Shown here piece by piece: positions 5,401-56,922 of a stretch of DNA of 64,000 bases. This DNA comes from Escherichia phage Cyrano. Positions within the stretch are counted from its first letter, which is position 1; every line of letters starts with the position of its first letter. The notes below the pieces were generated by a model that had not been told where the DNA came from, did not search any database, and saw only the letters and a program-made list of their open reading frames with translations. The DNA is taken from sequence record OV696614; one strand, 5' to 3'. A program made the position numbers and the translations under genes.

Positions 5401-5884
5401 TGAGGAGTTGATACGCCCGACTATTGGTATTAAACCCAAAATCATGATCATTCTGGACAATGCGAACGGCAATGACGCTCGTACCGGCTACTTCATGGAG
5501 AACGGATACGACGACTTTAAGGCAAAACTACTGACAGTTGGAGATCTGCGCATGGGCGATCTTTATGTCACGGGTGTTTGTAAGAAGGTTAAGGACAAAG
5601 AGAAAGACTATACCAAAGACGAGATAGGCCAGTTCACAGACTTTATGCGGGAAGAAATTAATCTTGTACGACCAACCTACATTTTGACGTGTGGTAGTCG
5701 TTCAACCGCACTATTTAACAATAAGAGTAAACCATCAGATCTGATTGGTCGTAAGGAGTACTTCCCAGAGCTTGATGCAACCGTCTTCTACGGATTTAAC
5801 CCGAATATCCTGTACTTCCGACCGGAAGAAGGAGAGCGACTGGAGGCCATTCTGGCTGATATCGCGGAGACAATAAATAAGTAA
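2378..5884 (+). CDS. dnaE: DNA polymerase III alpha-subunit-like replicative polymerase (DnaE family)
   Basis: 1168 aa. Conserved Pol IIIα palm region GFCGYFLMVRDL...GPGRGSSAGSLVAWCIGITNVDP...FERFINPER. N-terminal PHP-like region lacks the usual His residues. About 200 aa C-terminal extension of unclear fold. Confidence 0.85.
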   Translation: MKALMVRTDFSLGESALKAENAVKIAREAGYTAVISADSMNIASVIPLQRAAGDDMAVICGVKLNIVDDPTYEHRAKLAKESMRCMESLERGRNYSFTALIKNEQGYRDICELMTAANTREQFYFVPRLSLEQLVSTYAKGNIILLTSDIGSVFQRNDFAKIISTLITAGGKDNFYSVVYPHPTPFYDQINVRAMKVASALKIEPVAFYPAYYESIDDADIKDIAHMVTNNIKIDQPHRLRIPHQRDNAINGRRHLLEALKAFSVRMDVPVTAAMASTTQDSIIDACTWRWHELPPALPKMADDEPATLMKLAVAGLRKRLTTKEFGYTPPASENRVYVERLKYEMDTLTRLGFCGYFLMVRDLMNHSRETGIPVGPGRGSSAGSLVAWCIGITNVDPIRHGLLFERFINPERLDLPDADLDFSQARRHEVIEYLNERYGEDYVAGIPNFTYLGAASALRDTARIYGVESADMAVSKELKNVEDDSLPLEELREQLASLDKYATKYPDAFNAACKLQSLMRGFGRHAAGMIVAGVPLTERTPVERRGDARCIAFDKRYCEAMGLIKLDVLGLATLDLLDSAKRYIKESTGEDINLDAIPLDDRKVLDGFAAGYTQGVFQLESGPMRKLLKDLGGGIEPMSFKTVVATTALFRPGPIQSGMLDDYVSVAKGFMAPHSIHPRLEEVTRETNGVLLYQEQIMQSSRVLAGFSMAEADALRSAIGKKNMDKMKAIGSDFVERAQAGWVTLSLKNGGTVEVHKHAKLDCSDGKRRSYSEAISDGIDYVEIVSEQEGLSKEKAQEIWDAFEKFGGYAFNKSHSVAYSLISYQSMWLKTHYPAEFFAAALTILGEDKHQGLVKDALTYGIRVLPPDVNVSSNRIEIRTLEDGSQALYAPFSAVKGCSENGCQAIMRAREKVGGKFESVAQFDEAVEKRACNSRVRESLHKVGAFASIEPGSLPATDPERLRDQAELMGNLIIDAVKASRPFEMNPKRSAEINVLMTRMAAEMGLGEELIRPTIGIKPKIMIILDNANGNDARTGYFMENGYDDFKAKLLTVGDLRMGDLYVTGVCKKVKDKEKDYTKDEIGQFTDFMREEINLVRPTYILTCGSRSTALFNNKSKPSDLIGRKEYFPELDATVFYGFNPNILYFRPEEGERLEAILADIAETINK

Positions 5885-5890
5885 TAAAGA

Positions 5891-5913
5891 AAACCCGCCT
5901 GTTGGCGGGTTTA
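5891..5913 (+). terminator. rho-independent terminator after polymerase gene
   Basis: Hairpin AAACCCGCC-TGTT-GGCGGGTTT followed by T/A-rich tract. Confidence 0.6.
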
Positions 5914-6187
5914 TAAAGAATTATGGCGCTTGTTGAGGAAGTCACTCCTCTTACGCACTTTGTTTTGCCATGCCGGCAGTTAGCTTCTGCCTTTGACTAT
6001 TCATGCGGCAACCCCGCATTTCGCCACAATGGGCAATTCACTTTTATGGAATAAACTGGCCGTTGTGTCGATTTAATTAGCATGGCCTTACCATGCTAAT
6101 TTATTCAACTTGTACAATCCTACAAATCTATCCACTCAGGCTTACACCGTCTTCGTTATTGTAGAAATGAGGATCATCAGCGTTGAA

Positions 6188-6403
6188 TCAGCTTAGAGCA
6201 ACGACATTTGCTGCTGCTGGGCCTTTAGCACCATTCTCGATAGAGAATTCGACCTGCTGGCCTTCTTCCAAAGTGCGGAAATTATTACTCTGAATTGCCG
6301 AAAAATGTACAAAAACATCTTTACTGCCATCAGCAGGAGAAATAAAGCCAAAGCCTTTATCAGAGTTAAACCATTTTACTAAACCAGTCATTTTATTAGA
6401 CAT
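6188..6403 (-). CDS. cold-shock protein, CspA family
   Basis: 71 aa starting [21 protein letters not shown]...; RNP1/RNP2 motifs (KGFGFI, VFVHF); very similar to enterobacterial CspA-family proteins by recall. Long 5' leader typical of csp genes. Confidence 0.85.
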
Positions 6404-6732
6404 AGATATTACCTTCTTAATTTTGTGAGCCACATAGTGCGGCGAGAATTTGATCTGTATAGATTGGGACTTACTTAGGCACTTAAGGAGGAGACTCACG
6501 AAGAAGGGAAATCAGAAGATAACACTGAACTGAGACTGCTTTACTAAAACTGCTTACATAAGGTCTGTCTTGCAAACCAACGATGCTATTAACGCATACC
6601 CCTTCTTTTCATGCAACCTTTATTTTTCAAAGATAACTAATTTTTGTCACCATTGGTTTAGTAAACGTTAACGAACCAGACGATGCCAGACACCTTTACA
6701 GAGAACAGATGCCCGCCAATTGGCGGGCATCA

Positions 6733-15773: not shown

Positions 15774-16250
15774 CCACTGCGGTGAGTAGTCTGCTCACCG
15801 CATTCGTATCCAGCTCATTATCCACTGTAGTCAGTAACAAAACCTTCCTACATATCTGCTAACCACTGTAGCGAGTAGACAGCCTTTCATTCGCATCAAA
15901 CAACCACTATGGTGAGTATTGGAGTGAGATGTCCAGCGGGTATCCACTATGGTGAGTAAGCCTTTGCTGTTTTCAGTGGATATCCACTCGCCACAGTGGA
16001 TACGCTCAAAGATGAGGGCGACAACAACCACTATAGACAGTAAATTTTCCAAGATACCCAGTGACCACTAACCTCGCAGCCCTTGTTTCATCAGTGTTAG
16101 TGATCACTAACATTTAATTCAGTATTTGCATTCTACTGCCTACAGTGGTTATCAACAGATAACGATACTCACTATAGTGGATAGCGAATTACAGATATAA
16201 GTAAGGCTCACTACAGTGGATAGTGAGCCTTACTACTAACTACAGTGGTT
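15774..16250. repeat. iteron array downstream of repA (incA-like), about 11 copies in both orientations
   Basis: Repeated core CCACT(A/G)T(A/G)G / CTA(T/C)AGTGGATA, e.g. CCACTATGGTGAGTA, CCACTGTAGCGAGTAG, CACTATAGTGGATAG, CACTACAGTGGATAGTG, plus the palindrome CCACTCGCCACAGTGG. Confidence 0.7.
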
Positions 16251-16253
16251 GGG

Positions 16254-17309
16254 CTATTTGCGAGTCTTTGCCTTGCGCAACTCTTCGAGAAGCGCCAGTT
16301 CTTCTTTACTCAACATGACCATTTTGCCTTCTTTTTCGTCAGGCACAACGTCGATAATGTCATCTTGATTCTCATCTGGGAGGCTATATTCCGTCTCATC
16401 ATTATCGATTTTTGTTGATATTTGTGCCTGGCGTAACTTTGGCCGCCTATAGTGGATGACGAAGTAGACCGAGTTTCCGCGCTTAACTTCCGTGTAATCG
16501 AGATATCCTATCTCTCGCAGCTGTTCCATAGCCTTTCTTACCGTCGCATTCTGAGTAATAGTGCGACTTGTCAGATTAAGTCTGGCGCGTAAACGGGCTA
16601 GTGATATTGGTGCCGGATCAGGCGGCAAACTTTCAATAAAAGTATAAAGCGCCTGAGCGGATTCTTTTCTTGAGAGTTCGTTTATAGCCCGGAGTTGCAG
16701 AAGAACCTTTTTGTCGAACTGGTAGAGTTCGAAAATCTTGGGATCTGCTTTCAGTTCGACCGTATCGTGCTTGACACTATATTTTGCCGTTTGCACAAGA
16801 TGCGTTACGTAAAACTCATCAGAGCCTTTGCTACGGAACGAGATGGTATTTGTGGCAATACGGCTTAGCGAACTGTCCAGGCGTTTGCGTAACTTCGCTG
16901 ATGACCTGGCGGTCGGAATGCCACACAGCCTTACAAACTCAACGAACGGCAACGTGACAGTATCGCCAACGACCTTGTGTTTGGCAAACGCGTGGATTAT
17001 TCCCACCCACGTTTTAAAGTCGTTATCCATATCAAGCCGAAGGCCAGAGATCCTTATGTCTTCGTACCCTTCGGCTTTTGCCAGAGACAGCTGTTTGAGT
17101 TCAGCAGAGGCATCCATAGAGACCATTTGCCCCTTTCTTCCTCTGGATGTCGATTTCAGCGTCGGAACGAAGAGGCCCAGACGCATCAAAGCAACAGGCT
17201 GAACAGTGTTATTAGTGTTAGGAACCAACGTAACAACTTCGCCTGTCTTTTTATCTGTTTCTGAAAATGCTTCAACGATCGCTATGTTTTTATTGCCGTT
17301 TTCGCTCAT
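16254..17309 (-). CDS. repA: iteron-binding replication initiator (RepA/Rep_3-like)
   Basis: 351 aa flanked on both sides by iteron arrays; C-terminal half has a winged-helix-like pattern typical of Rep_3 initiators (…ALYTFIESL…[12 protein letters not shown]…[19 protein letters not shown]…). Confidence 0.65.
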
Positions 17310-17355
17310 TCCAAATGTCTCTTGTTATTCGACGGCTTTGGTGGCCTTTGCTGAT

Positions 17356-17473
17356 TACAGTGGATAGTAGCACTCATCACAGCGGTTATCCTACCGTCTA
17401 TAGTGGTTTTTCTCCTCTCTATAGTGGTTGCTTTGCTCCCTATAGTGGATTATTCGCTCTCTATAGTGGATAT
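17356..17473. repeat. iteron array upstream of repA (incC-like), 22-bp periodicity
   Basis: CTATAGTGG repeated four times at 20-22 bp spacing (17397-17473) plus two degenerate copies (TTACAGTGGATAG, CACAGCGGTTATC). Confidence 0.7.
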
Positions 17474-17474
17474 C

Positions 17475-17966
17475 GATCATGTCTGAAGGCAGATGGCACA
17501 ACGGTTTGAGGTGGGCGGGGATCTTATTGGGTCTTTATGGGTCTCTTTGGTTCTCTTTGTGATCTGAATTACTGGATCGGGCCTGTGGATAAAAATCAGA
17601 GGATTTCAAGAACAGGTAACTCTACTCTTCTGTGGATATTTAAGGACATAAGAATCATGACTAAGAGTAGAGTTTAAAATATATCTATGTATATCAGTAT
17701 GTTAATGAAGAATTAAGTCATTAAGTTATCCATAAAAGACAATGTGCTCTACTCTCTACAGTGGATATATACAGCTCTCCAGAGTGGTTGTTTTACTCTT
17801 CATAGCGGTTATTCAGCTCTCTACAGAGGTTTCTTTGCTCTCCATAGTGGATGGCAACACCCTTTCAGACCAGTAACCGCAACGGCTAGAGGCGATCGGG
17901 GATCTCTTTGGATCTTCTATTTGATCTTACTTGGGATCTCTTATTTGGATCTATCCAGTGGATAAC
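17475..17966. promoter_or_regulatory. origin-like region: DnaA boxes, AT-rich segment, second degenerate iteron set and GATC clusters
   Basis: Perfect DnaA box TGTGGATAA at 17585-17593 and near-matches at 17631, 17726 and 17958; degenerate 21-22 bp iterons at 17744-17870; six GATC sites within 17894-17951; a related degenerate block at 17510-17578. Confidence 0.55.
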
Positions 17967-18052
17967 TGGGATAAGTAAAACAGGCAAATGCAGATTAAGG
18001 TATGCCTAATGAGTTATCGTAGCATCGGCCAATAACTACTGAAAAAACGATT

Positions 18053-40241: not shown

Positions 40242-40302
40242 TAGGTAAATGCTTACTTAATTTGTGTAAGAATGTAGTAACTAAACGATAAGAGAAAAAC
40301 AC

Positions 40303-41007
40303 ATGAGCAACCTCCAGTTAGAGCATTTTAACGTCACAGGACATTCCGATTTTCCTTTCAAGTTTACATTGAAAGGTTATGCAGAGGATGCGGTAGGCCA
40401 GATCATTATTGATAAAGGCATCGTTAAGTTTGAGGGGAATTTTGATGAATCCGCGAAAACATTCATAGACTTCGTTGCCAAACGTTGGAGCGAGCAATGG
40501 AAAGACCTGGAAAAGCGCGCTAGTGAGTTTGATCGGTTCATGGATGCAATGGATACAGCAAAAGAGGCTATTGCTGCCGGGACTCCGTTAGATCTGGAGT
40601 CACTTTTCAACGGCGAAGTGGCCTCTGCGATGTTCGCTACCATGTTCGCGGGTGAGTTCGTCCGCAGCGGTGCCAAAAACTACCTTGAGCTGGATTACAA
40701 CGTCCCTGCAATTGGCGATTTCGTCGTTACCATCCAACGCAAAGAAGGTAAGACGCCAGGTGAACGCGTCGCAGAACTTGAGGCTGTTGTGGATCAGCGT
40801 AACGGAGAGTGTGACCGTTTGATCAACGAGCTTCATGCACTTCGGGAAGAAAGAATATGCGAGGGTAGTAATACACGTAATGCAGCGGATATCTACTTCC
40901 AGTTAGTTGAGGAATGCCAGATTCCACCAGGTGGCTCTCTTGTCGATTACGTCGGACATTTAATGGCGGAAGTTAACTCCAGCCATAAAGATGGTGAGGT
41001 GCGCTGA
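40303..41007 (+). CDS. hypothetical protein
   Basis: 234-codon ORF with AGAGAAAAACACATG start context. Confidence 0.45.
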   Translation: MSNLQLEHFNVTGHSDFPFKFTLKGYAEDAVGQIIIDKGIVKFEGNFDESAKTFIDFVAKRWSEQWKDLEKRASEFDRFMDAMDTAKEAIAAGTPLDLESLFNGEVASAMFATMFAGEFVRSGAKNYLELDYNVPAIGDFVVTIQRKEGKTPGERVAELEAVVDQRNGECDRLINELHALREERICEGSNTRNAADIYFQLVEECQIPPGGSLVDYVGHLMAEVNSSHKDGEVR

Positions 41008-46459: not shown

Positions 46460-46616
46460 CCCGTCTCCTTTATTTTAATTTGCGCAATTGTCGCCTTGTA
46501 GTGTACTCCAGCTACGACATTTAATCATTTATGAGAAATGCTGTTATCACATGGCAGACATAAGGCCATTTTGTTACTATCAAGCCCCTTTTCACTACAA
46601 AGAAGTAATGCCTACT

Positions 46617-48650
46617 ATGACCCAAGTCGCGAAGAAAATTCTGGTGACGTGCGCGCTGCCGTACGCTAACGGCTCAATCCACCTCGGCCATATGCTGGAG
46701 CACATCCAGGCTGATGTCTGGGTTCGTTACCAGCGAATGCGCGGCCACGAGGTTAATTTCATCTGTGCCGACGATGCCCACGGTACGCCGATCATGCTGA
46801 AAGCACAGCAGCTTGGTATCACACCGGAGCAGATGATTGGCGAAATGAGTCAGGAGCATCAGACTGATTTCGCAGGCTTTAACATCAGCTATGACAACTA
46901 TCACTCGACGCACAGCGAAGAGAACCGTCAGTTGTCTGAGCTTATCTATACTCGCCTGAAAGAGAACGGTTTTATTAAAAACCGCACTATCTCTCAGTTG
47001 TACGACCCGGAAAAAGGCATGTTCCTGCCGGATCGTTTTGTGAAAGGCACCTGCCCGAAATGTAAAGCGCCAGATCAATACGGCGATAACTGTGAAGTCT
47101 GCGGCGCAACATATAGCCCGACTGAATTGATCGAGCCGAAATCGGTGGTTTCTGGCGCTACCCCGGTAATGCGTGATTCCGAACACTTCTTCTTTGATCT
47201 GCCTTCTTTCAGCGAAATGTTGCAGGCATGGACCCGCAGCGGCGCGTTGCAGGAGCAGGTGGCAAACAAAATGCAGGAGTGGTTTGAATCTGGCCTGCAA
47301 CAGTGGGATATCTCCCGCGATGCGCCTTACTTCGGTTTTGAAATTCCGGACGCGCCGGGCAAATATTTCTACGTCTGGCTGGACGCGCCGATTGGCTACA
47401 TGGGTTCCTTCAAGAATCTGTGCGACAAGCGCGGCGATACCACCAGCTTCGATGAATACTGGAAGAAAGACTCCACCGCCGAGCTGTACCACTTCATCGG
47501 TAAAGATATTGTTTACTTCCACAGCCTGTTCTGGCCTGCCATGCTGGAAGGCAGCAACTTCCGCAAGCCGACCAACCTGTTTGTTCACGGCTATGTGACG
47601 GTGAACGGCGCGAAGATGTCCAAGTCTCGCGGCACCTTTATTAAAGCCAGCACCTGGCTGAATCATTTTGACGCTGACAGCCTGCGTTACTACTACACTG
47701 CGAAACTCTCTTCGCGCATTGATGATATCGATCTCAACCTGGAGGATTTCGTTCAGCGCGTGAATGCCGATATCGTGAACAAAGTGGTTAACCTGGCCTC
47801 CCGTAATGCAGGCTTTATCAACAAGCGTTTTGACGGCGTGCTGGCAAGCGAACTGGCTGACCCGCAACTGTACAAAACCTTTACTGATGCCGCTGAAGTG
47901 ATTGGCGAAGCATGGGAAAGCCGTGAATTTGGTAAAGCTATCCGTGAAATCATGGCATTGGCTGACCTGGCTAACCGCTATGTCGATGAACAGGCTCCGT
48001 GGGTGGTGGCGAAGCAGGAAGGACGCGATGCCGATCTGCAGGCGATTTGCTCTATGGGCATTAACCTGTTCCGCGTGCTGATGACGTACCTGAAGCCGGT
48101 ACTGCCGAAACTGACTGAACGTGCAGAAGCATTCCTGAATACAGAACTGACCTGGGATGGCATCCAGCAACCGTTGCTGGGCCATAAAGTGAATCCGTTC
48201 AAGGCACTGTATAACCGCATCGATATGAAGCAGGTTGAAGCACTGGTGGAAGCATCCAAAGAAGAAGTGAAAGCCACAGCCGCACCGGTAACTGGCCCAC
48301 TGGCTGACGACCCGATTCAGGAAACTATCACCTTTGACGACTTCGCCAAAGTTGACCTGCGCGTGGCGCTGATTGAAAACGCAGAGTTTGTAGAAGGTTC
48401 TGACAAACTGCTACGCCTGACGCTGGATCTCGGTGGTGAAAAGCGTAATGTCTTCTCAGGCATCCGTTCTGCTTATCCAGACCCACAGGCACTGATTGGT
48501 CGTCACACCATTATGGTGGCTAACCTGGCTCCGCGTAAAATGCGCTTCGGTATCTCCGAAGGCATGGTGATGGCTGCTGGCCCCGGCGGGAAAGATATCT
48601 TCCTGTTAAGCCCGGATGCTGGTGCTAAACCAGGCCACCAGGTTAAGTAA
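46617..48650 (+). CDS. metG: methionyl-tRNA synthetase
   Basis: 677 aa starting [26 protein letters not shown] (HIGH motif), KMSKS motif present, zinc knuckles CPKC...CEVC; near-identical to E. coli MetG by recall. Start set at ATG 46617, not the listed upstream 46488. Confidence 0.95.
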
Positions 48651-49156: not shown

Positions 49157-49891
49157 ATGAAAAAGTTGAAAAGTTTAGAAATCCCTGGAACTGGTTATAA
49201 ATTCTTTATGGACAACGCGGAGTGTGCACCTAACGCGTTGGAAAAAATACAAAGTCTTATCAACAGCCTTACTGAAGAAGCGAAAGAACTGAAGAGCGAG
49301 GCGACAAAGGACAATACAGCTAAAATCCAATGCTTAAATCTCGTCTCTTATTGTTTATATCAAGTATCCAAAACACTGATTAAAGGCAATATCTATTACG
49401 ACGATGAAGACACCTCGACACCTGAAGAAAAAGATAGCGATGAAGAACTCTATGAAGATATCTCTACTAGTGCGGGTCACGCTGCCTTCGATGCTATGGG
49501 TGAATCGTCAGGCATCAGATCATTTGTTGAACAGAACAATTCGACAATAATGATTGAGTACTGTGAACAAACAAGCTCCAAGGCCATACATGTTCTTCAC
49601 GATGTTGCTGCAGGGGTTCGCTGTGAGGCTGAAGCGGTCAGAAAAGATGTATTTGGTGCAGACAGTAATACCGTGAAAGCGTTTATCAACAGTGCTCTGC
49701 TAAATTCTTACTCAAACCTTATAGTCAATGCGGCACTATGCGCAAATTCAGGTGAAGAACACATTGTCATAACTGAAACCAAACATGAGCATCAACAGTC
49801 ACCAACCATAGAAGAGGTAACTGCATTGGCTATCAAACAGGCGAGTGAAATTAGTGATGAAATTCTCTCTCTGCTAAACAAAACTAAGTAA
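49157..49891 (+). CDS. hypothetical protein, AT-rich gene
   Basis: 244-codon ORF with low GC and an acidic central segment; no recognisable motif. Confidence 0.45.
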   Translation: MKKLKSLEIPGTGYKFFMDNAECAPNALEKIQSLINSLTEEAKELKSEATKDNTAKIQCLNLVSYCLYQVSKTLIKGNIYYDDEDTSTPEEKDSDEELYEDISTSAGHAAFDAMGESSGIRSFVEQNNSTIMIEYCEQTSSKAIHVLHDVAAGVRCEAEAVRKDVFGADSNTVKAFINSALLNSYSNLIVNAALCANSGEEHIVITETKHEHQQSPTIEEVTALAIKQASEISDEILSLLNKTK

Positions 49892-49994
49892 AACATTGAT
49901 AATGGCGGTCACAATTTGATTCTTTTCTATAAGAATCCGTTGATCGCCACTACTCCCCTTCCATACCCGCAACCACATCCTTAAATATCAATAA

Positions 49995-50790
49995 GTTATA
50001 GTTGTTTATACAATCAAGAAAACAACTGAATAACAGATCAACGAAACGTCAACGCTTTCACCCGATTTGGCCTAAAAAATTGACGTTTTCACACATCACT
50101 GCTTATACCCGTAATTCTACGCAGCAGACAGCACCACAGCGTTCAATTTTCACCACAGACGACTCAACACACTACCAACAAAAACACACGCTCAAAATCG
50201 CTCCCGTTGCGTTACATAACCATATAAACAACTTATTTTCAGGCATAACAAAACAACTAAATAACACATATGCCATTACCCAAAACAACCAACCTCTTTA
50301 TGGCAGGCTACCGAAAAGACCCACCTCTTCTTCCCAGGCTACCGGACAACCAACCTAACTTTCACAGGCAATCCGAAAACATTCATACGCGCGATACCCA
50401 CGACACGCCATTACCCAAACAGCGAAGAAACACCAGAATCACTGAAACCCCAACGAAGCCTGTAACCGCAAGGTTTCTCTCAATCCCAAAAGACACGAAA
50501 CATAACAATCACGGGAAACGCCATTACCCAATACACGAATAACTACAAAAGCCTTTCACACACTCCAGACAAACAACTCAAACACAATAACGAAAGGAAT
50601 CGCCCACCTGCCATTACTCCATACACGGAGAAGAACAATCACCAAAACGACGAGAACACCCCATAGAAGAACCACCGCAAAACTAACGAAACCACATACA
50701 CCGACAGAGAAAACAACACACCCAATTCACCAACAGAAATAGTCGCCGTATAGAACGTTCTGGAAGGAGTGAGCATTAACGCCTATAGAG
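49995..50790. repeat. G-depleted CA-rich non-coding segment with GCCATTACCCAA direct repeats
   Basis: About 800 nt with very few G on the plus strand; GCCATTAC(C/T)CAA(A/T)ACA recurs at about 50271, 50408, 50519 and 50600; CAGGCTACCG recurs at 50303 and 50336. Confidence 0.55.
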
Positions 50791-50939
50791 AGGTTGAAAC
50801 AGATAAAACACGAAGAAAACACAACATGTATAGCGAACAAGACAGGTATGTATAAGTGGGGAGGGAAGGAGGGGTGTCGCCTCCTTTTTCGTATTTATTC
50901 AACTCCTGATTTTATCCCCCGTAACACCCCTACGGTCAG

Positions 50940-51100
50940 CCTTCGGTCCATACAGGGAAAAGGCTGCATCCCGCTACAGAAACGGCTGGGTTGCCTTCGG
51001 GGAACGGCTGGAGGTTTTCAGGGAAACGGTCGAGTTGCCTGTGTGGATTTCGGGAAAAGGCTCGATGCCGGTTCAGGAACGGCGGCGTACCGGTATAGCG
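50940..51100. repeat. array of GGAAACGGC-type direct repeats
   Basis: CAGGGAAAAGGCTGC, CAGAAACGGCTGG, GGGGAACGGCTGG, CAGGGAAACGGTCG, CGGGAAAAGGCTCG and CAGGAACGGCGGCG at roughly 20-25 bp spacing; a similar array lies at 54604-54720. Confidence 0.55.
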
Positions 51101-51425
51101 TGAGGGAGAGTTGCGGCTACCCACCTGTAATGTGCGGGAAGAAGAGAGGCGCTCACGTGCAGGCGAACTTACTTACCGCAGGATTCCCTCTGAATGCCCA
51201 ACTACAGCGTAATTGTGCCAGACAGCCAACGGGCCACAATCGATTTCAGTAGGTTTTCGGGGAGATGATTATTCTGCCCACCAGCCACCTTCGGCCACTA
51301 AATCAGAATAATGTAAAAAGTGTACTCGGTACTGAACCTGAAAACTCACTGCCAAAACCACATTCACCGGAATAAAATCCTTTTTCGCCTTTGCGTTATT
51401 GCGATAATAACACCATCAAGAAAAC

Positions 51426-51776
51426 ATGTTGTTTAAGGATTGCTTTATGTTTGCAAATATCGACATCAACCAAATTAAGAAATTGACTCAAAAAGAGTTT
51501 GACCAGTTTTATGAGTTAGAAGGTTGGTCTTCCACTCTGATTAATTCAAGATGGGTGCTGGAACTGATGACTCGTGATGACGCACCTGCTTTGATGATCA
51601 GCGACCTGGGTGAAGATGCTGACTTTATGGATATGAGCGAATTTTGTGTGGACACATACAACCGCAGCCAGAAGTACTACTTCACATGCGATAGCGAAAA
51701 TGACGTGATTTCTAAGGTCTATCTTCACCTCGTCCAGCATTGGGACGTTCAGGAGTTTCTTGAGGTATTCGCGTAA
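51426..51776 (+). CDS. hypothetical protein (small-gene cassette)
   Basis: 116-codon ORF preceded by CGATAATAACACCATCAAGAAAACATGTTGTTT promoter-like motif. Confidence 0.45.
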   Translation: MLFKDCFMFANIDINQIKKLTQKEFDQFYELEGWSSTLINSRWVLELMTRDDAPALMISDLGEDADFMDMSEFCVDTYNRSQKYYFTCDSENDVISKVYLHLVQHWDVQEFLEVFA

Positions 51777-54561: not shown

Positions 54562-55149
54562 CTGAGAAGAGGGCCAGAAACGGCCCTTTCTCTACAGCCA
54601 CCAGCTGCCGCAGGGAAATTTTCAGAAACGGCGAGGAACGTATTCATGAGCCGACGGGAAACGGCCAGGATTTTTTCGGGAAACGGCTGCATTCGCCTTT
54701 ATGTAGAAAAAACATCGGGAAGCTGGTGGAATCCAACCAGCGGTTGTCGGACAGGTGAGCGGGGAAAATCATGATGACTTTCGTCGCCTGAGACATCCAG
54801 ATTTCTTTCGTAGCGTAATCACATACGTGATTAAGTGGTGTGATTATGTGAAAAATCACGCGCACATAATACGCGAGCGGATACGGAACAAAACAAAATG
54901 CCGATCCGCGCCGACAATTAAACGCGGATCACATAGCAAGAATAAAAGCCAATGATTAACCATACACCATAACGCAATATAACGCGCTTAAATCGCGTTA
55001 ATGCGCTAAGTAATGGGTATGTACTGGTAAGGATATAAAAGCGCGTCTATGGCGTTATTTTGGCGCTTATTTTTATGTTGTTGGAGTGAGTCAAAGACAA
55101 TAAAAAAGCGCCATCATTGGCGCGTTATGGTGGGAGTATTGGAAACGAA

Positions 55150-56400: not shown

Positions 56401-56922
56401 TTAAAATGGAAGGATTCGTTCAACCCAATCGAAGAAAACAAGTATTTTTCTGCCGTCTTCTAATTTAAGAGTGACCTGGCAAGCATCAACGCCTCTTGAC
56501 ACCCCTTCTATTTCACGACCGTCTGTCATGTAGACCCTTATAGATTGGTCGTTTTGATAAGCCTTGCGACATATCGCAAAAAAGTCACGGCGTGATGGCT
56601 GATTGTCAACATAGTCTGGATGTATTGTTAGCCTACCTTTGAACTCGCGAGCAATGCCATCGATTACACCTGATTCAATTGTGCTAATGCGCTCAAGTGG
56701 GAGTCTTATACGATTTTCTTTATCATATGGAAGCGGGCATAAATCTAGCTTATTGCGGGAAGGCATTGTCCCCTGAACGTACATGCAAAACACCTGACCG
56801 TCTTCAAGCGTGACTCTTACAGGAATGTTGTTCTTCCGCCAGAACATAAGTATGTTTTCAGCATGTTCGTAGTCTCGCGGCCAGACTTCAGCCGGTATGC
56901 CGTAGGTGATGTCTTTAACCAT
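56401..56922 (-). CDS. hypothetical protein
   Basis: 173-codon ORF in an AT-rich stretch. Confidence 0.45.
   Translation of the reverse strand: MVKDITYGIPAEVWPRDYEHAENILMFWRKNNIPVRVTLEDGQVFCMYVQGTMPSRNKLDLCPLPYDKENRIRLPLERISTIESGVIDGIAREFKGRLTIHPDYVDNQPSRRDFFAICRKAYQNDQSIRVYMTDGREIEGVSRGVDACQVTLKLEDGRKILVFFDWVERILPF

What the first reader, a model, noticed from the sequence alone, without database searches (positions are those of the whole stretch)
49995..50790. 800-nt strongly G-depleted, CA-rich non-coding segment with spaced direct repeats
The plus strand is almost devoid of G across about 800 nt, a strand asymmetry far beyond the rest of the window, and contains four copies of GCCATTAC(C/T)CAA(A/T)ACA at roughly 80-140 bp intervals. 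The ORFs predicted here look like artefacts of stop-codon depletion. Candidate roles: lytic origin or packaging site, a long CA-rich non-coding RNA, or a recombination hotspot.
Basis: seen in the sequence. Interest (0 to 1): 0.55.

Follow-up and report, generated by a model that had tools for sequence, protein, structure and literature searches.

The report
Structure-free C-rich non-coding tract in phage-plasmid
A conserved, unannotated 0.8-kb stretch of an SSU5-type phage-plasmid of E. coli has one strand built almost only of A and C, so that strand cannot fold; it does not code for protein, is silent in the lysogen, and most likely stops transcripts leaving the variable cargo genes, although a lytic replication origin is not excluded.

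Summary
Window 49,995-50,790 has 13% G, not about 0%, against 24% for the window. A+C reaches 0.75, about 7 SD above the mean, and this is unique across 114 kb of the element. Four GCCATTAC repeats are present.

The window is an SSU5-type phage-plasmid and is collinear with Cyrano/pLF82. The tract is the core of a 1.5-kb unannotated backbone module (49,896-51,430). That module occurs in 245 of 5,426 complete E. coli genomes and 837 PLSDB plasmids, and is as conserved as the neighbouring genes. No ORF is conserved.

The + strand is the sense strand of all flanking genes, and its RNA includes seven of the eight least-structured 200-nt windows in 64 kb. It meets rut-type composition continuously for 872 nt. 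Published strand-specific RNA-seq shows the upstream gene on, the tract at floor (about a 270-fold drop) and the downstream gene on.

Best reading (confidence 0.35): an oversized, one-way Rho-loading insulator between a cargo hotspot and early genes. The conserved repeats still need an unidentified ligand.

Main rival (0.25): a transcription- or R-loop-activated lytic origin.

CsrA, Hfq and GcvB sponge models, an antisense partner, a small ORF and a pac site were tested or weighed and not supported.

The parts
49903..49949 (+). Block-1 hairpin (UGGCGGUCA ... UGAUCGCCA with an inner stem). It lies 14-35 nt after the stop codon of whatever + strand cargo gene sits upstream, and it marks the sharp left edge of homology among all relatives.
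   Evidence: MFE -19.1 kcal/mol, z = -5.1 against shuffles. The outer stem is invariant, and the inner stem is kept by a different sequence in the window. Homology starts at 49,895/6.
49940..50790 (+). G- and T-depleted (A+C-rich) structure-free tract; this is the finding itself.
   Evidence: Composition. Seven of the eight least-structured 200-nt + strand RNA windows in 64 kb, with the minus strand near average. The rut-type criterion (C >= 28%, G <= 15% per 78 nt) is met continuously over 49,891-50,762. The skew is conserved in all relatives.
49981..50035 (.). The most AT-rich 40-bp patch of the module (75-82% AT), at the same alignment position in most relatives.
   Evidence: The 99th percentile for the window is 0.75.
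50016..50109 (+). Conserved block 2: an AAGAAAACAA box, ATCAACG (50,037) and GTCAACG (50,048) boxes, an A-tract, then TTGACG (50,080-50,085), 18 nt, and TATACC (50,104-50,109). It looks like a promoter but lacks the -7 T.
   Evidence: Invariant columns in alignment A1. The sigma-70 scans do not call it. RNA-seq shows no + strand transcript downstream of it in lysogens.
50226..50238 (.). One copy (1 mismatch here, perfect in relatives) of the palindrome AAACAANTTGTTT. Elsewhere this palindrome follows the TGnGATAAT -10 element of the small early genes.
   Evidence: 13 sites against 0.5 expected in the window; sequence contexts.
50280..50371 (+). Three degenerate tandem 31-nt repeats (ACCcACCTCTT-N6-CAGGCTAC...). 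Copy number is 1-3 among relatives.
   Evidence: Family D1; alignment A1. Too degenerate for Tandem Repeats Finder.
50272..50637 (+). Four dispersed GCCATTAC units, starting at 50,272, 50,407, 50,520 and 50,610. SSU5-type relatives carry six, spaced 41-52, 90 and 142 nt, which suggests a degenerate ~45-nt array.
50598..50765 (+). The best-conserved stretch of the tract. It overlaps a semi-conserved open frame on the minus strand that I judge non-coding.
   Evidence: The start codon is not conserved, variable columns by codon position are 17/19/23 of 32, and the frame is shifted in L036.
50863..50890 (+). Terminator-like hairpin with a purine-rich 5' arm (GGGGAGGGAAGGAGGGG) followed by a U-run, at the 3' end of the tract.
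   Evidence: -18.9 kcal/mol, z = -3.7. The same position is called in K. oxytoca. The stem is partly conserved. It is one of 5 such G-clusters on the + strand.
50955..51098 (+). G-rich zone: six direct repeats GGRAAAMGGCYNG spaced 20-31 nt. A second cluster of the same motif lies at 54,575-54,700.
51278..51285 (-). A Chi site next to the G-rich zone.
   Evidence: 17 Chi sites in the window against 1.2 expected.
51395..51434 (+). The next gene's own promoter-operator (TGcGATAAT ... AAGAAAACAtgTTGTTTA); this is the right edge of the non-coding module.
   Evidence: CYRAN_105 is expressed although CYRAN_103 and CYRAN_104 are not.

Best explanation
The G-depleted segment is the core of a 1.5-kb non-coding backbone module of SSU5-type phage-plasmids. 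Its defining property is strand-specific. The + strand, which is the sense strand of every flanking gene, is 70-75% A+C, so an RNA copy has essentially nothing to pair with.

An untranslated, unstructured, C-rich and G-poor RNA is what the host termination factor Rho loads onto. I therefore read the tract as an oversized, one-way Rho-loading (rut-type) barrier.

Proposed sequence of events:
1. Transcripts leave the variable cargo ('moron') genes upstream, which are always co-oriented with the tract and are expressed in the lysogen.
2. They run past a conserved hairpin (49,903-49,949) into the tract.
3. Rho captures them and releases them. The hairpin would be left as the protected 3' end.
4. 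A terminator-like hairpin at 50,863-50,890 acts as a back-stop.

This keeps the module and the conserved small early genes downstream, which have their own promoter-operator units, insulated from cargo transcription.

Shown: composition, lack of structure, lack of coding capacity, conservation, the co-orientation of the flanking genes, and the loss of + strand transcript at the entry of the tract.

Inferred: that Rho is the agent and that insulation is the selected function.

Not explained by this model: the 870-nt length and the sequence-specific repeats. These imply an additional ligand or a second, possibly lytic-phase, function.
For: (1) C is 30-36% and G 9-16% over 49,891-50,762. That is 872 nt meeting a rut-type criterion continuously, against 178 nt for the next longest stretch on the + strand.

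(2) The + strand RNA has an MFE of -14 to -26 kcal/mol per 200 nt, against a window mean of -50.5 (sd 9.3). It supplies seven of the eight least-structured windows, while the minus strand is ordinary. Its z-score against shuffles is about 0, so the lack of structure follows from composition alone.

(3) There is no conserved ORF, so ribosomes would not shield the RNA.

(4) In the collinear element Cyrano, whose ORF lengths and spacings match the window to the base, strand-specific RNA-seq gives CYRAN_102 (= 49,157-49,891) up to log2(fpkm+5) = 9.2. CYRAN_103 (= 50,002-50,358) sits at 2.3-2.9 in the same samples, a drop of about 270-fold across 111 nt. CYRAN_104 is near floor, and CYRAN_105 (= 51,426-51,776) rises again to 7.8.

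(5) In every relative examined the upstream gene is different, is on the + strand, and ends 14-35 nt before the hairpin. Homology starts sharply there even among 96-98% identical relatives.

(6) A hairpin without a proper U-tract followed by a C-rich tract is the architecture described for trimmed 3' ends of Rho-terminated transcripts. This last point rests on established knowledge from my own recall, not on a test here.

(7) The skew holds in variable alignment columns as well (A+C 0.65) and across three sequence types, so a bulk property of the strand is being maintained.
Against: - Known rut sites are about 70-100 nt long, so 870 nt is 5-10 times more than termination needs.
- The tract carries genus-spanning, sequence-specific repeats and invariant blocks that a purely compositional element would not need.
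- The RNA-seq drop occurs at or before the start of the tract, and per-gene counts cannot separate the hairpin from the C-rich tract as the terminating element.
- Rho dependence has not been tested anywhere.
- Skew is stronger in invariant columns (A+C 0.74) than in variable ones. This fits a sequence-specific single-strand ligand as well as it fits Rho.
- The adjoining G-rich iteron zone and the sign switch of the skew are better explained by an origin.
Confidence: 0.35

Rival explanations
1. Lytic replication origin (oriLyt), possibly of the T4 oriF/oriG type. After induction, a transcript through the untranslated, structure-free tract re-anneals to its template, or the neighbouring G-rich iterons are bound by an initiator. 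One strand is displaced and DNA synthesis is primed. The local amino/keto skew would be the footprint of, or the requirement for, prolonged single-strandedness.
For: - The tract is unique in about 114 kb of the element.
- Three families of direct repeats are present, including six ~22-bp-spaced iterons.
- The skew switches sign at about 50.8 kb with the polarity expected at a bidirectional origin: minus strand keto-rich to the left, plus strand G-rich to the right.
- A conserved 40-bp patch is 75-82% AT.
- The + strand is silent in the lysogen.
- The module is as conserved as the coding neighbours.
- The family encodes a T4-like toolkit as annotated by the Cyrano authors: UvsW, UvsY, gp32-like SSB, RecA/UvsX-like and RNase H.
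- The plasmid origin (RepA plus CTCTCTATAGTGGATA iterons) lies elsewhere, so a separate lytic origin is expected.
Against: - There are no DnaA boxes and no long DNA-unwinding element.
- The sigma-70 scans call no promoter inside the module.
- The helicase and primase genes lie about 60 kb away.
- The same iteron motif forms a second cluster 3.6 kb away.
- GCCATTAC spacing shows no helical phasing.
- A G-poor RNA is not the classical R-loop former, and the downstream zone falls short of the 40% G criterion.
- No replication data exist.
Confidence: 0.25
2. A lytic-phase long non-coding RNA. After induction the tract is transcribed into a ~0.7-kb unfolded RNA whose repeated GCCAUUAC units (or its bulk C-richness) bind and titrate a single-strand RNA-binding factor, for example Rho itself or a phage protein.
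For: - The strand-specific absence of structure, and the stronger A/C bias at invariant positions, both point to a single-strand ligand.
- The repeats have irregular spacing, as in RNA sponges.
- The tract ends in a + strand terminator-like hairpin.
- The conserved TTGACG-N18-TATACC element could be a regulated promoter.
Against: - No + strand transcript is seen in any of the five lysogen conditions sampled.
- The promoter-like element lacks the -7 T and is not called by the scans.
- Known sponge logics fail: GGA is not enriched (6 against 4.7 expected), (ARN)n is not enriched, and GcvB-R1 pairing is at background and not conserved.
- There is no Rfam match.
- No complementary partner exists anywhere in the element.
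Confidence: 0.12
3. A double-stranded protein-binding array, either centromere-like (as F sopC) or a regulatory nucleoprotein platform. The skew would then be a by-product of amplifying a short A/C-rich unit.
For: - SSU5-type relatives show units at 41-52 nt, close to the 43-bp period of sopC.
- Repeat copy number varies between relatives.
- The module exists in at least three sequence types uncoupled from the adjacent gene, as specificity determinants often are.
- It contains an O-box and five GTTGAY/RTCAAC boxes.
Against: - The units contain no inverted repeat, and the A/C-rich tract is almost free of palindromes.
- Spacing is not phased with the helix.
- Skew extends to non-repeat parts (50,100-50,270) and to variable columns.
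- The ParA operon is elsewhere in the element.
Confidence: 0.1
4. No selected function for the skew itself. It would be a purely mutational footprint (deamination of a chronically single-stranded minus strand) or drifting repeat DNA.
For: - The direction of the skew (minus strand rich in G and T) is what C-to-T and A-to-G deamination of an exposed minus strand would give.
- Once composition is accounted for, substitution exchangeabilities look ordinary.
Against: - The module is as conserved as the flanking genes: 67.5% against 66.8-68.4% identity to SSU5, and within-type diversity of 0.018-0.038 against 0.011-0.060.
- Skew is stronger in invariant columns than in variable ones.
- The module is present in every one of 245 E. 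coli carriers, with no deletion variants.
Confidence: 0.08
5. It encodes protein after all: either a + strand ORF as annotated in some records (CYRAN_103, SSU5_108, PhiR41_1 XSB42477) or a ~35-45-aa hydrophobic peptide on the minus strand at 50,642-50,790.
For: - An open minus-strand frame recurs in all 10 relatives, and one indel within it is 12 nt, a multiple of three.
- There is a slight excess of variation at codon position 3: 23 variable columns against 17 and 19.
Against: - The start codon is not conserved: ATG in 5 of 10 relatives, and ACG, TTG or AAG in the others.
- A close relative (L036) is frameshifted within the frame.
- The + strand ORFs differ in position and frame in every relative, with 4-8 frame-breaking indels.
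- PGAP annotates nothing here.
- CYRAN_103 is not transcribed.
Confidence: 0.03

Closest known systems
Rho-dependent terminators and rut sites (lambda tR1 rutA/rutB, trp t', the rho leader) and Rho-mediated silencing of untranslated or foreign transcripts
   Same: An untranslated, C-rich, G-poor, unstructured RNA downstream of a co-oriented transcription unit, with transcript loss at its entry and a hairpin just upstream that could be the trimmed 3' end.
   Different: It is about ten times longer than described rut sites, carries conserved sequence-specific repeats, is embedded in a larger repeat-rich module, and its Rho dependence is untested.
Phage T4 oriF/oriG (R-loop-primed origins), ColE1 RNA II, and the transcription-activated phage origins lambda ori and P1 oriL
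   Same: A non-coding region that is silent in the repressed state. An untranslated transcript through it could stay annealed to the template, and the element encodes the UvsW/UvsY/gp32-like/RNase H set that T4 uses around such origins.
   Different: No mapped promoter, no unwinding element of the usual kind, a G-poor rather than G-rich RNA, and a much longer tract (hundreds of nt against about 50).
Iteron arrays of plasmid and phage replicons (P1 incC/incA, lambda ori) and the F sopC centromere (12 x 43 bp)
   Same: Several families of same-orientation direct repeats: ~22-bp spacing in the G-rich zone and ~45-nt units in SSU5-type tracts.
   Different: The element's own RepA iterons are unrelated and lie 33 kb away. 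No initiator or ParB partner has been identified, the units contain no inverted repeats, and known arrays do not show strand skew.
Bacterial and phage RNA sponges (CsrB/CsrC for CsrA, CrcZ for Hfq/Crc, prophage AgvB and SroC for GcvB)
   Same: A long non-coding sequence with a short motif repeated at irregular intervals in a single-stranded context. GcvB targets are C/A-rich.
   Different: GGA, (ARN)n and GcvB-R1 complementarity are all at background, and there is no expression in the lysogen.

Membership tests
Rho-dependent terminator (rut site) | At least ~70-80 nt of C-rich, G-poor RNA (C/G well above 1) | tested here: met
   C >= 28% and G <= 15% in every 78-nt window from 49,891 to 50,762; overall C 0.30, G 0.13.
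Rho-dependent terminator (rut site) | RNA free of stable secondary structure | tested here: met
   Seven of the eight least-structured 200-nt + strand windows in 64 kb; -6.5 to -15 kcal/mol per 150 nt.
Rho-dependent terminator (rut site) | Untranslated, and downstream of a co-oriented transcription unit | tested here: met
   No conserved ORF. The upstream gene is on the + strand in all relatives.
Rho-dependent terminator (rut site) | Transcripts end here in vivo | tested here: inconclusive
   Published per-gene strand-specific RNA-seq shows a drop of about 270-fold between CYRAN_102 and CYRAN_103. There is no 3'-end map, so the hairpin and the tract cannot be separated.
Rho-dependent terminator (rut site) | Termination depends on Rho (sensitive to bicyclomycin or rho mutants) | not testable with these tools
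   No such data set was found.
Iteron-type replication origin | Tandem direct repeats of 17-22 bp at about two helical turns | tested here: inconclusive
   The G-rich zone has six GGRAAAMGGCYNG repeats spaced 24, 22, 20, 31 and 24 nt. The repeats inside the G-depleted tract itself are irregular, at 41-143 nt.
Iteron-type replication origin | Adjacent AT-rich unwinding element and DnaA boxes | tested here: not met
   No TTWTNCACA site in the module. The only AT-rich feature is one 40-bp patch at 75-82% AT.
Iteron-type replication origin | Cognate initiator gene next to the repeats | tested here: not met
   [not shown]
T4-type R-loop origin | A promoter whose transcript forms a persistent RNA-DNA hybrid used as a primer | not testable with these tools
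   Only a non-canonical TTGACG-N18-TATACC element is present and no transcript is seen in lysogens. No induction data exist.
CsrB/RsmZ-type CsrA sponge | Many GGA motifs, above expectation from composition | tested here: not met
   GGA occurs 6 times against 4.7 expected in the window and 7-12 against 5.8-8.4 in relatives. No Rfam CsrB or CsrC match.
Hfq sponge (CrcZ-like) | Repeated (ARN)n or AAYAAYAA tracts | tested here: not met
   (ARN)x4 occurs once against 1.5 expected; AAYAAYAA occurs 0 times against 0.7 expected.
GcvB sponge (AgvB/SroC-like) | Conserved extended complementarity to the G/U-rich R1 region of GcvB | tested here: not met
   Mean duplex energy is -18 to -21 kcal/mol against a window background of -18.4. 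The longest exact complement is 8-10 nt and is not conserved.
Protein-coding gene | An ORF conserved in position and frame, with variation concentrated at codon position 3 | tested here: not met
F sopC-like centromere | Tandem ~43-bp units, each with an inverted-repeat binding site, next to the partition operon | tested here: not met
   Units of 41-52 nt occur only in SSU5-type relatives. There are no inverted repeats within units. parA is elsewhere.
pac/cos packaging site | Lies in or next to the small-terminase gene, with virion DNA ends mapping to it | not tested
   By position, terS is about 14 kb away in Cyrano. No read-end data are available. IMG/VR contig ends cluster at the metG boundary (about 48.0-48.8 kb), which I attribute to provirus trimming.

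The most novel reading that the evidence does not exclude
The tract is a conditional single-strand device. It is silent in the lysogen, but after induction it is transcribed into a ~0.7-kb RNA that cannot fold. That RNA either stays hybridised to its template as an extended R-loop that primes T4-style lytic replication (the element carries UvsW, RNase H, UvsY and a gp32-like SSB), or it acts as a decoy that ties up Rho so that the phage's long co-oriented operons are read through. The GCCAUUAC units would be the docking sites of a phage-specific factor.
Probability: 0.2. Interest if true: 0.8.

Novelty: new variant of a known kind. Interest (0 to 1): 0.6.

Why it matters
SSU5-type phage-plasmids are common in Enterobacteriaceae. 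This module is in 4.5% of complete E. coli genomes and in 837 PLSDB plasmids of Klebsiella, Escherichia, Enterobacter, Salmonella and Citrobacter. These elements carry resistance and cargo genes, yet their regulation and lytic replication are essentially unmapped.

A 1.5-kb backbone module that is as conserved as the genes, unannotated everywhere and compositionally unique is a prime candidate for one of the missing cis-acting elements. It could be the insulator that lets new cargo be plugged in upstream without disturbing the early genes, or it could be the lytic origin.

If it is a Rho barrier, it would be by far the longest natural rut-type tract described, and a reusable one-way transcription insulator. 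If it is an R-loop origin or a Rho decoy, it would be a new mechanism in a temperate phage of clinical hosts.

Tried and rejected
- **Rfam.** Gathering-threshold search over 40-64 kb and permissive E-value searches over the module and the second iteron cluster gave nothing credible.
- **CsrA sponge.** GGA is not enriched.
- **Hfq sponge.** ARN and AAYAA motifs are at expectation.
- **GcvB sponge.** This was prompted by the known C/A-rich targets of GcvB. I fetched gcvB from MG1655; pairing energies are at background and no seed is conserved.
- **P4/P1-style antisense immunity.** No complementary copy of the repeat unit occurs in the window or in the remaining 50 kb of a sister genome. One 13-nt inverse match inside a CDS does not extend, and about 1.4 such matches are expected by chance.
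- **Small hydrophobic minus-strand ORF.** Not supported.
- **Plasmid origin.** The RepA iterons are unrelated and 33 kb away. There are no DnaA boxes.
- **Invertible segment or inverted CTTATACC pair.** Only 7-8 nt match, the orientation is identical in all relatives, and the motif is not significant.
- **Tandem Repeats Finder.** No array found at its stringency.
- **More distant relatives.** A conserved-motif scan of species-representative genomes found 3 loci: two loci on contigs of 58-109 kb in Kluyvera and Buttiauxella, and a 604-nt contig filed under Catenulispora that I suspect is contamination. A protein-anchored scan of IMG/VR found only close relatives.
- **Literature.** Seven full-text searches found no description of this region. 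One 2026 preprint on phage-plasmid copy number was listed but could not be opened.
- **Substitution-spectrum test for selection on composition.** Uninformative once base frequencies are accounted for.
Full report
**What the window is.** The region matches only plasmids of 105-120 kb. In E. coli it is found in 243 of 5,426 complete genomes and never on a chromosome. It also matches the phages PhiR41_1 and SSU5 and several Klebsiella phage-plasmids, and 837 PLSDB plasmids of Klebsiella, Escherichia, Enterobacter, Salmonella, Citrobacter and Cronobacter. The window is therefore part of an SSU5-type phage-plasmid. ORF lengths and spacings between 49,157 and 51,776 match those of Cyrano (pLF82) to the base, with a constant offset of 44,379. 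This makes published Cyrano data directly usable.

**Check of the observation.** Window 49,995-50,790 is A 0.394, C 0.302, G 0.132, T 0.172.
- G is depleted by about 5 SD relative to all other 796-nt windows. GC skew is -0.465, against an outside range of -0.155 to +0.223.
- 'Almost devoid of G' is too strong.
- T is depleted too, so the real signature is A+C against G+T. A+C reaches 0.75 in 400-nt windows, against mean 0.50 and sd 0.035. The highest value anywhere else in the 64-kb window plus the other 50 kb of PhiR41_1 is 0.627.
- The skewed tract starts at about 49,940.
- The four GCCATTAC copies are at 50,272, 50,407, 50,520 and 50,610 and are far beyond chance.
- The unit is really about 28 nt. 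SSU5-type relatives have six copies spaced 41-52, 90 and 142 nt, which suggests a degenerate ~45-nt array.
- Three degenerate 31-nt tandem repeats lie at 50,280-50,371.

**Non-coding and conserved.**
- RefSeq leaves about 1.5 kb unannotated here in every relative inspected.
- In an alignment of ten diverged relatives, stop-free frames differ in position and frame, and each pairwise comparison has 4-8 frame-breaking indels.
- A short hydrophobic frame on the minus strand (50,642-50,790) recurs. However, it lacks a conserved start codon, shows almost no codon-position-3 excess (17/19/23 variable columns) and is frameshifted in a close relative.
- The module is nevertheless as conserved as the neighbouring genes. 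Identity to SSU5 is 67.5% over 1.3 kb, against 66.8-68.4% for adjacent coding DNA. Within-type diversity is 0.018-0.038, against 0.011-0.060.
- It is present in all 245 E. coli carriers of the downstream genes.
- The A+C bias is conserved in all relatives. It holds in variable columns (0.65) and is stronger in invariant ones (0.74).
- The module exists in at least three sequence types (about 98, 72 and 67% identity to the window), while the adjacent gene stays 94-100% identical in protein.

**Anatomy of the 1.5-kb module (49,896-51,430).**
1. A conserved hairpin at 49,903-49,949 (-19.1 kcal/mol, z = -5.1) lies 14-35 nt after the stop codon of whatever + strand gene is upstream. That gene differs between lineages, and homology begins sharply at 49,895.
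2. A G-free, C-rich run follows, then a 40-bp patch of 75-82% AT.
3. A highly conserved block carries an AAGAAAACAA box, RTCAAC/GTTGAY boxes and TTGACG-N18-TATACC. This last element looks like a promoter but lacks the -7 T and is not called by the scans.
4. There is one copy of the palindrome AAACAANTTGTTT. This palindrome occurs 13 times in the window against 0.5 expected, and otherwise sits just after the TGnGATAAT -10 element of the small early genes.
5. The repeat-bearing A/C-rich body follows.
6. A terminator-like hairpin with a U-run lies at 50,863-50,890 (z = -3.7). It is also called in K. oxytoca.
7. A G-rich zone with six ~22-bp-spaced GGRAAAMGGCYNG repeats lies at 50,955-51,098. A second cluster of the same motif is at 54,575-54,700.
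8. A Chi site follows, and then the next gene's own promoter-operator.

**Single-strand properties.** Folded as RNA, the + strand of 50,001-50,800 supplies seven of the eight least-structured 200-nt windows in the whole 64 kb (-14 to -26 kcal/mol, against -50.5 with sd 9.3). The minus strand is ordinary, because G and U can pair with each other. Against shuffles the body has z of about 0, so the lack of structure follows from composition alone. A rut-type criterion (C >= 28%, G <= 15% in 78 nt) is met without interruption from 49,891 to 50,762. The next longest such stretch on the + strand is 178 nt.

**Expression.** The LF82 study (PMC9928086) reports strand-specific RNA-seq per gene, in log2(fpkm+5):
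- CYRAN_102, the gene just upstream, reaches 9.2.
- CYRAN_103, which covers 50,002-50,358, is at or near the floor of 2.32 in all ten samples.
- CYRAN_104, which covers the G-rich zone, is near floor.
- CYRAN_105, the next gene, reaches 7.8.

The module is thus a + strand-silent island between two active, co-oriented units, and the upstream transcript is lost across about 111 nt that contain the hairpin and the start of the C-rich tract. The table says nothing about the minus strand or about induced cells.

**Interpretation.** A bulk compositional property kept on one strand, including at variable positions, points to a function or a mutational history at the single-strand level rather than to ordinary duplex protein-binding sites.

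The reading that fits the most tested facts is a one-way Rho-loading barrier. The tract is untranslated, unstructured, C-rich and G-poor on the strand that incoming transcripts would copy. It lies directly behind a co-oriented, lysogen-expressed and lineage-variable cargo gene, with a hairpin that could be the trimmed 3' end and an intrinsic-type back-stop. I put this at 0.35 because its length and its conserved repeats are not explained by it, and because Rho dependence is untested.

The chief rival (0.25) is a lytic origin. The points in its favour are:
- the tract's uniqueness in the genome;
- several repeat families;
- the sign switch of the skew at about 50.8 kb, with the polarity expected at an origin;
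- silence in the lysogen;
- a T4-like UvsW/UvsY/gp32/RNase H gene set in the family.

Against it stand the absence of DnaA boxes, of a clear unwinding element, of a nearby initiator and of any replication data.

The two readings are not exclusive. An origin that is fired by transcription would need exactly such insulation in the lysogen.

**Rejected by test.** These were CsrA, Hfq and GcvB sponge models, an antisense partner, known RNA families, the plasmid origin and protein coding. A pac site is unlikely by position only. The literature searches found no description of the region.

**Verdict.** This is a real, strongly conserved, compositionally unique non-coding element whose function is not yet known. 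It is best classed for now as an unusual variant of a known kind (a Rho-type transcription barrier or a phage origin). It has enough unexplained, sequence-specific structure to deserve experiments.

Noticed in passing
window, 13 sites, e.g. 14,216; 36,899; 48,786; 51,422; 51,907; 53,561; 54,046: A palindrome, AAACAANTTGTTT, usually embedded in CAAGAAAACAANTTGTTTA, occurs 13 times against 0.5 expected. It sits a few bases after a TGnGATAAT extended -10 element and just before the Shine-Dalgarno sequence of many small + strand genes. This looks like the operator of one regulon. A FljA-like repressor gene (PF03614, with a weak Hfq-like match) lies at 56,401-56,922 on the minus strand.
   Followed up: partly
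window 50,955-51,098 and 54,575-54,700: Two clusters of the direct repeat TTTTCRGGGAAAMGGC, spaced about 22 bp, bracket the six small early genes. Each cluster is preceded by a purine-rich hairpin and lies next to Chi sites. The binding partner is unknown.
   Followed up: partly
whole window: Chi (GCTGGTGG) occurs 17 times against 1.2 expected from shuffles, about one per 3.8 kb. One inverted pair is 108 bp apart at 54,598 and 54,722.
   Followed up: no
window 15,900-18,000: This is the plasmid replicon: 21-bp-spaced iterons (CTCTCTATAGTGGATA, at least 14 copies) on both sides of the expected repA position, plus a DnaA box at 17,584. It is unrelated to the finding.
   Followed up: partly
window 46,488-48,650 and upstream: A full-length methionyl-tRNA synthetase gene, together with an apbC/mrp-like gene, a umuD-like S24 peptidase, Pol III theta and a type I R-M system in relatives, sits in the cargo region just upstream of the module. 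IMG/VR contigs are cut at this host-like block.
   Followed up: no
L004 (K. pneumoniae pKP4, IncFIB/IncHI1B, 202 kb) 5,878-6,625; similar hits H83-H90: A 750-bp fragment of the Klebsiella-type module (hairpin plus the first half of the A/C-rich tract) is embedded in large non-phage plasmids next to a type I R-M/DUF262 locus, and homology to the module breaks off after about 750 bp; an IS5 transposase gene is annotated about 4.5 kb further on. It looks like a relic of recombination with a phage-plasmid.
   Followed up: partly
L015 (604-nt contig filed under Catenulispora yoronensis): The contig aligns to the window over the same coordinates and at the same 72.6% identity as the K. oxytoca version of this module (L006), although I did not compare the two directly. 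Contamination of an actinomycete assembly seems the likely explanation.
   Followed up: no
loci L038-L045 and L049 against the window: The non-coding module is only 67-73% identical to the window in elements whose adjacent gene product is 94% identical. The module is therefore exchanged or evolves as a separate unit with at least three types.
   Followed up: partly
[not shown]
   Followed up: partly
Cyrano 40,268-40,822 (outside the window; supplementary table of PMC9928086): CYRAN_43, a 'hypothetical protein' between glutaredoxin and integrase, is transcribed 723-fold above the prophage background in lysogens. This is by far the most expressed locus of the element and might be an RNA gene.
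   Followed up: no
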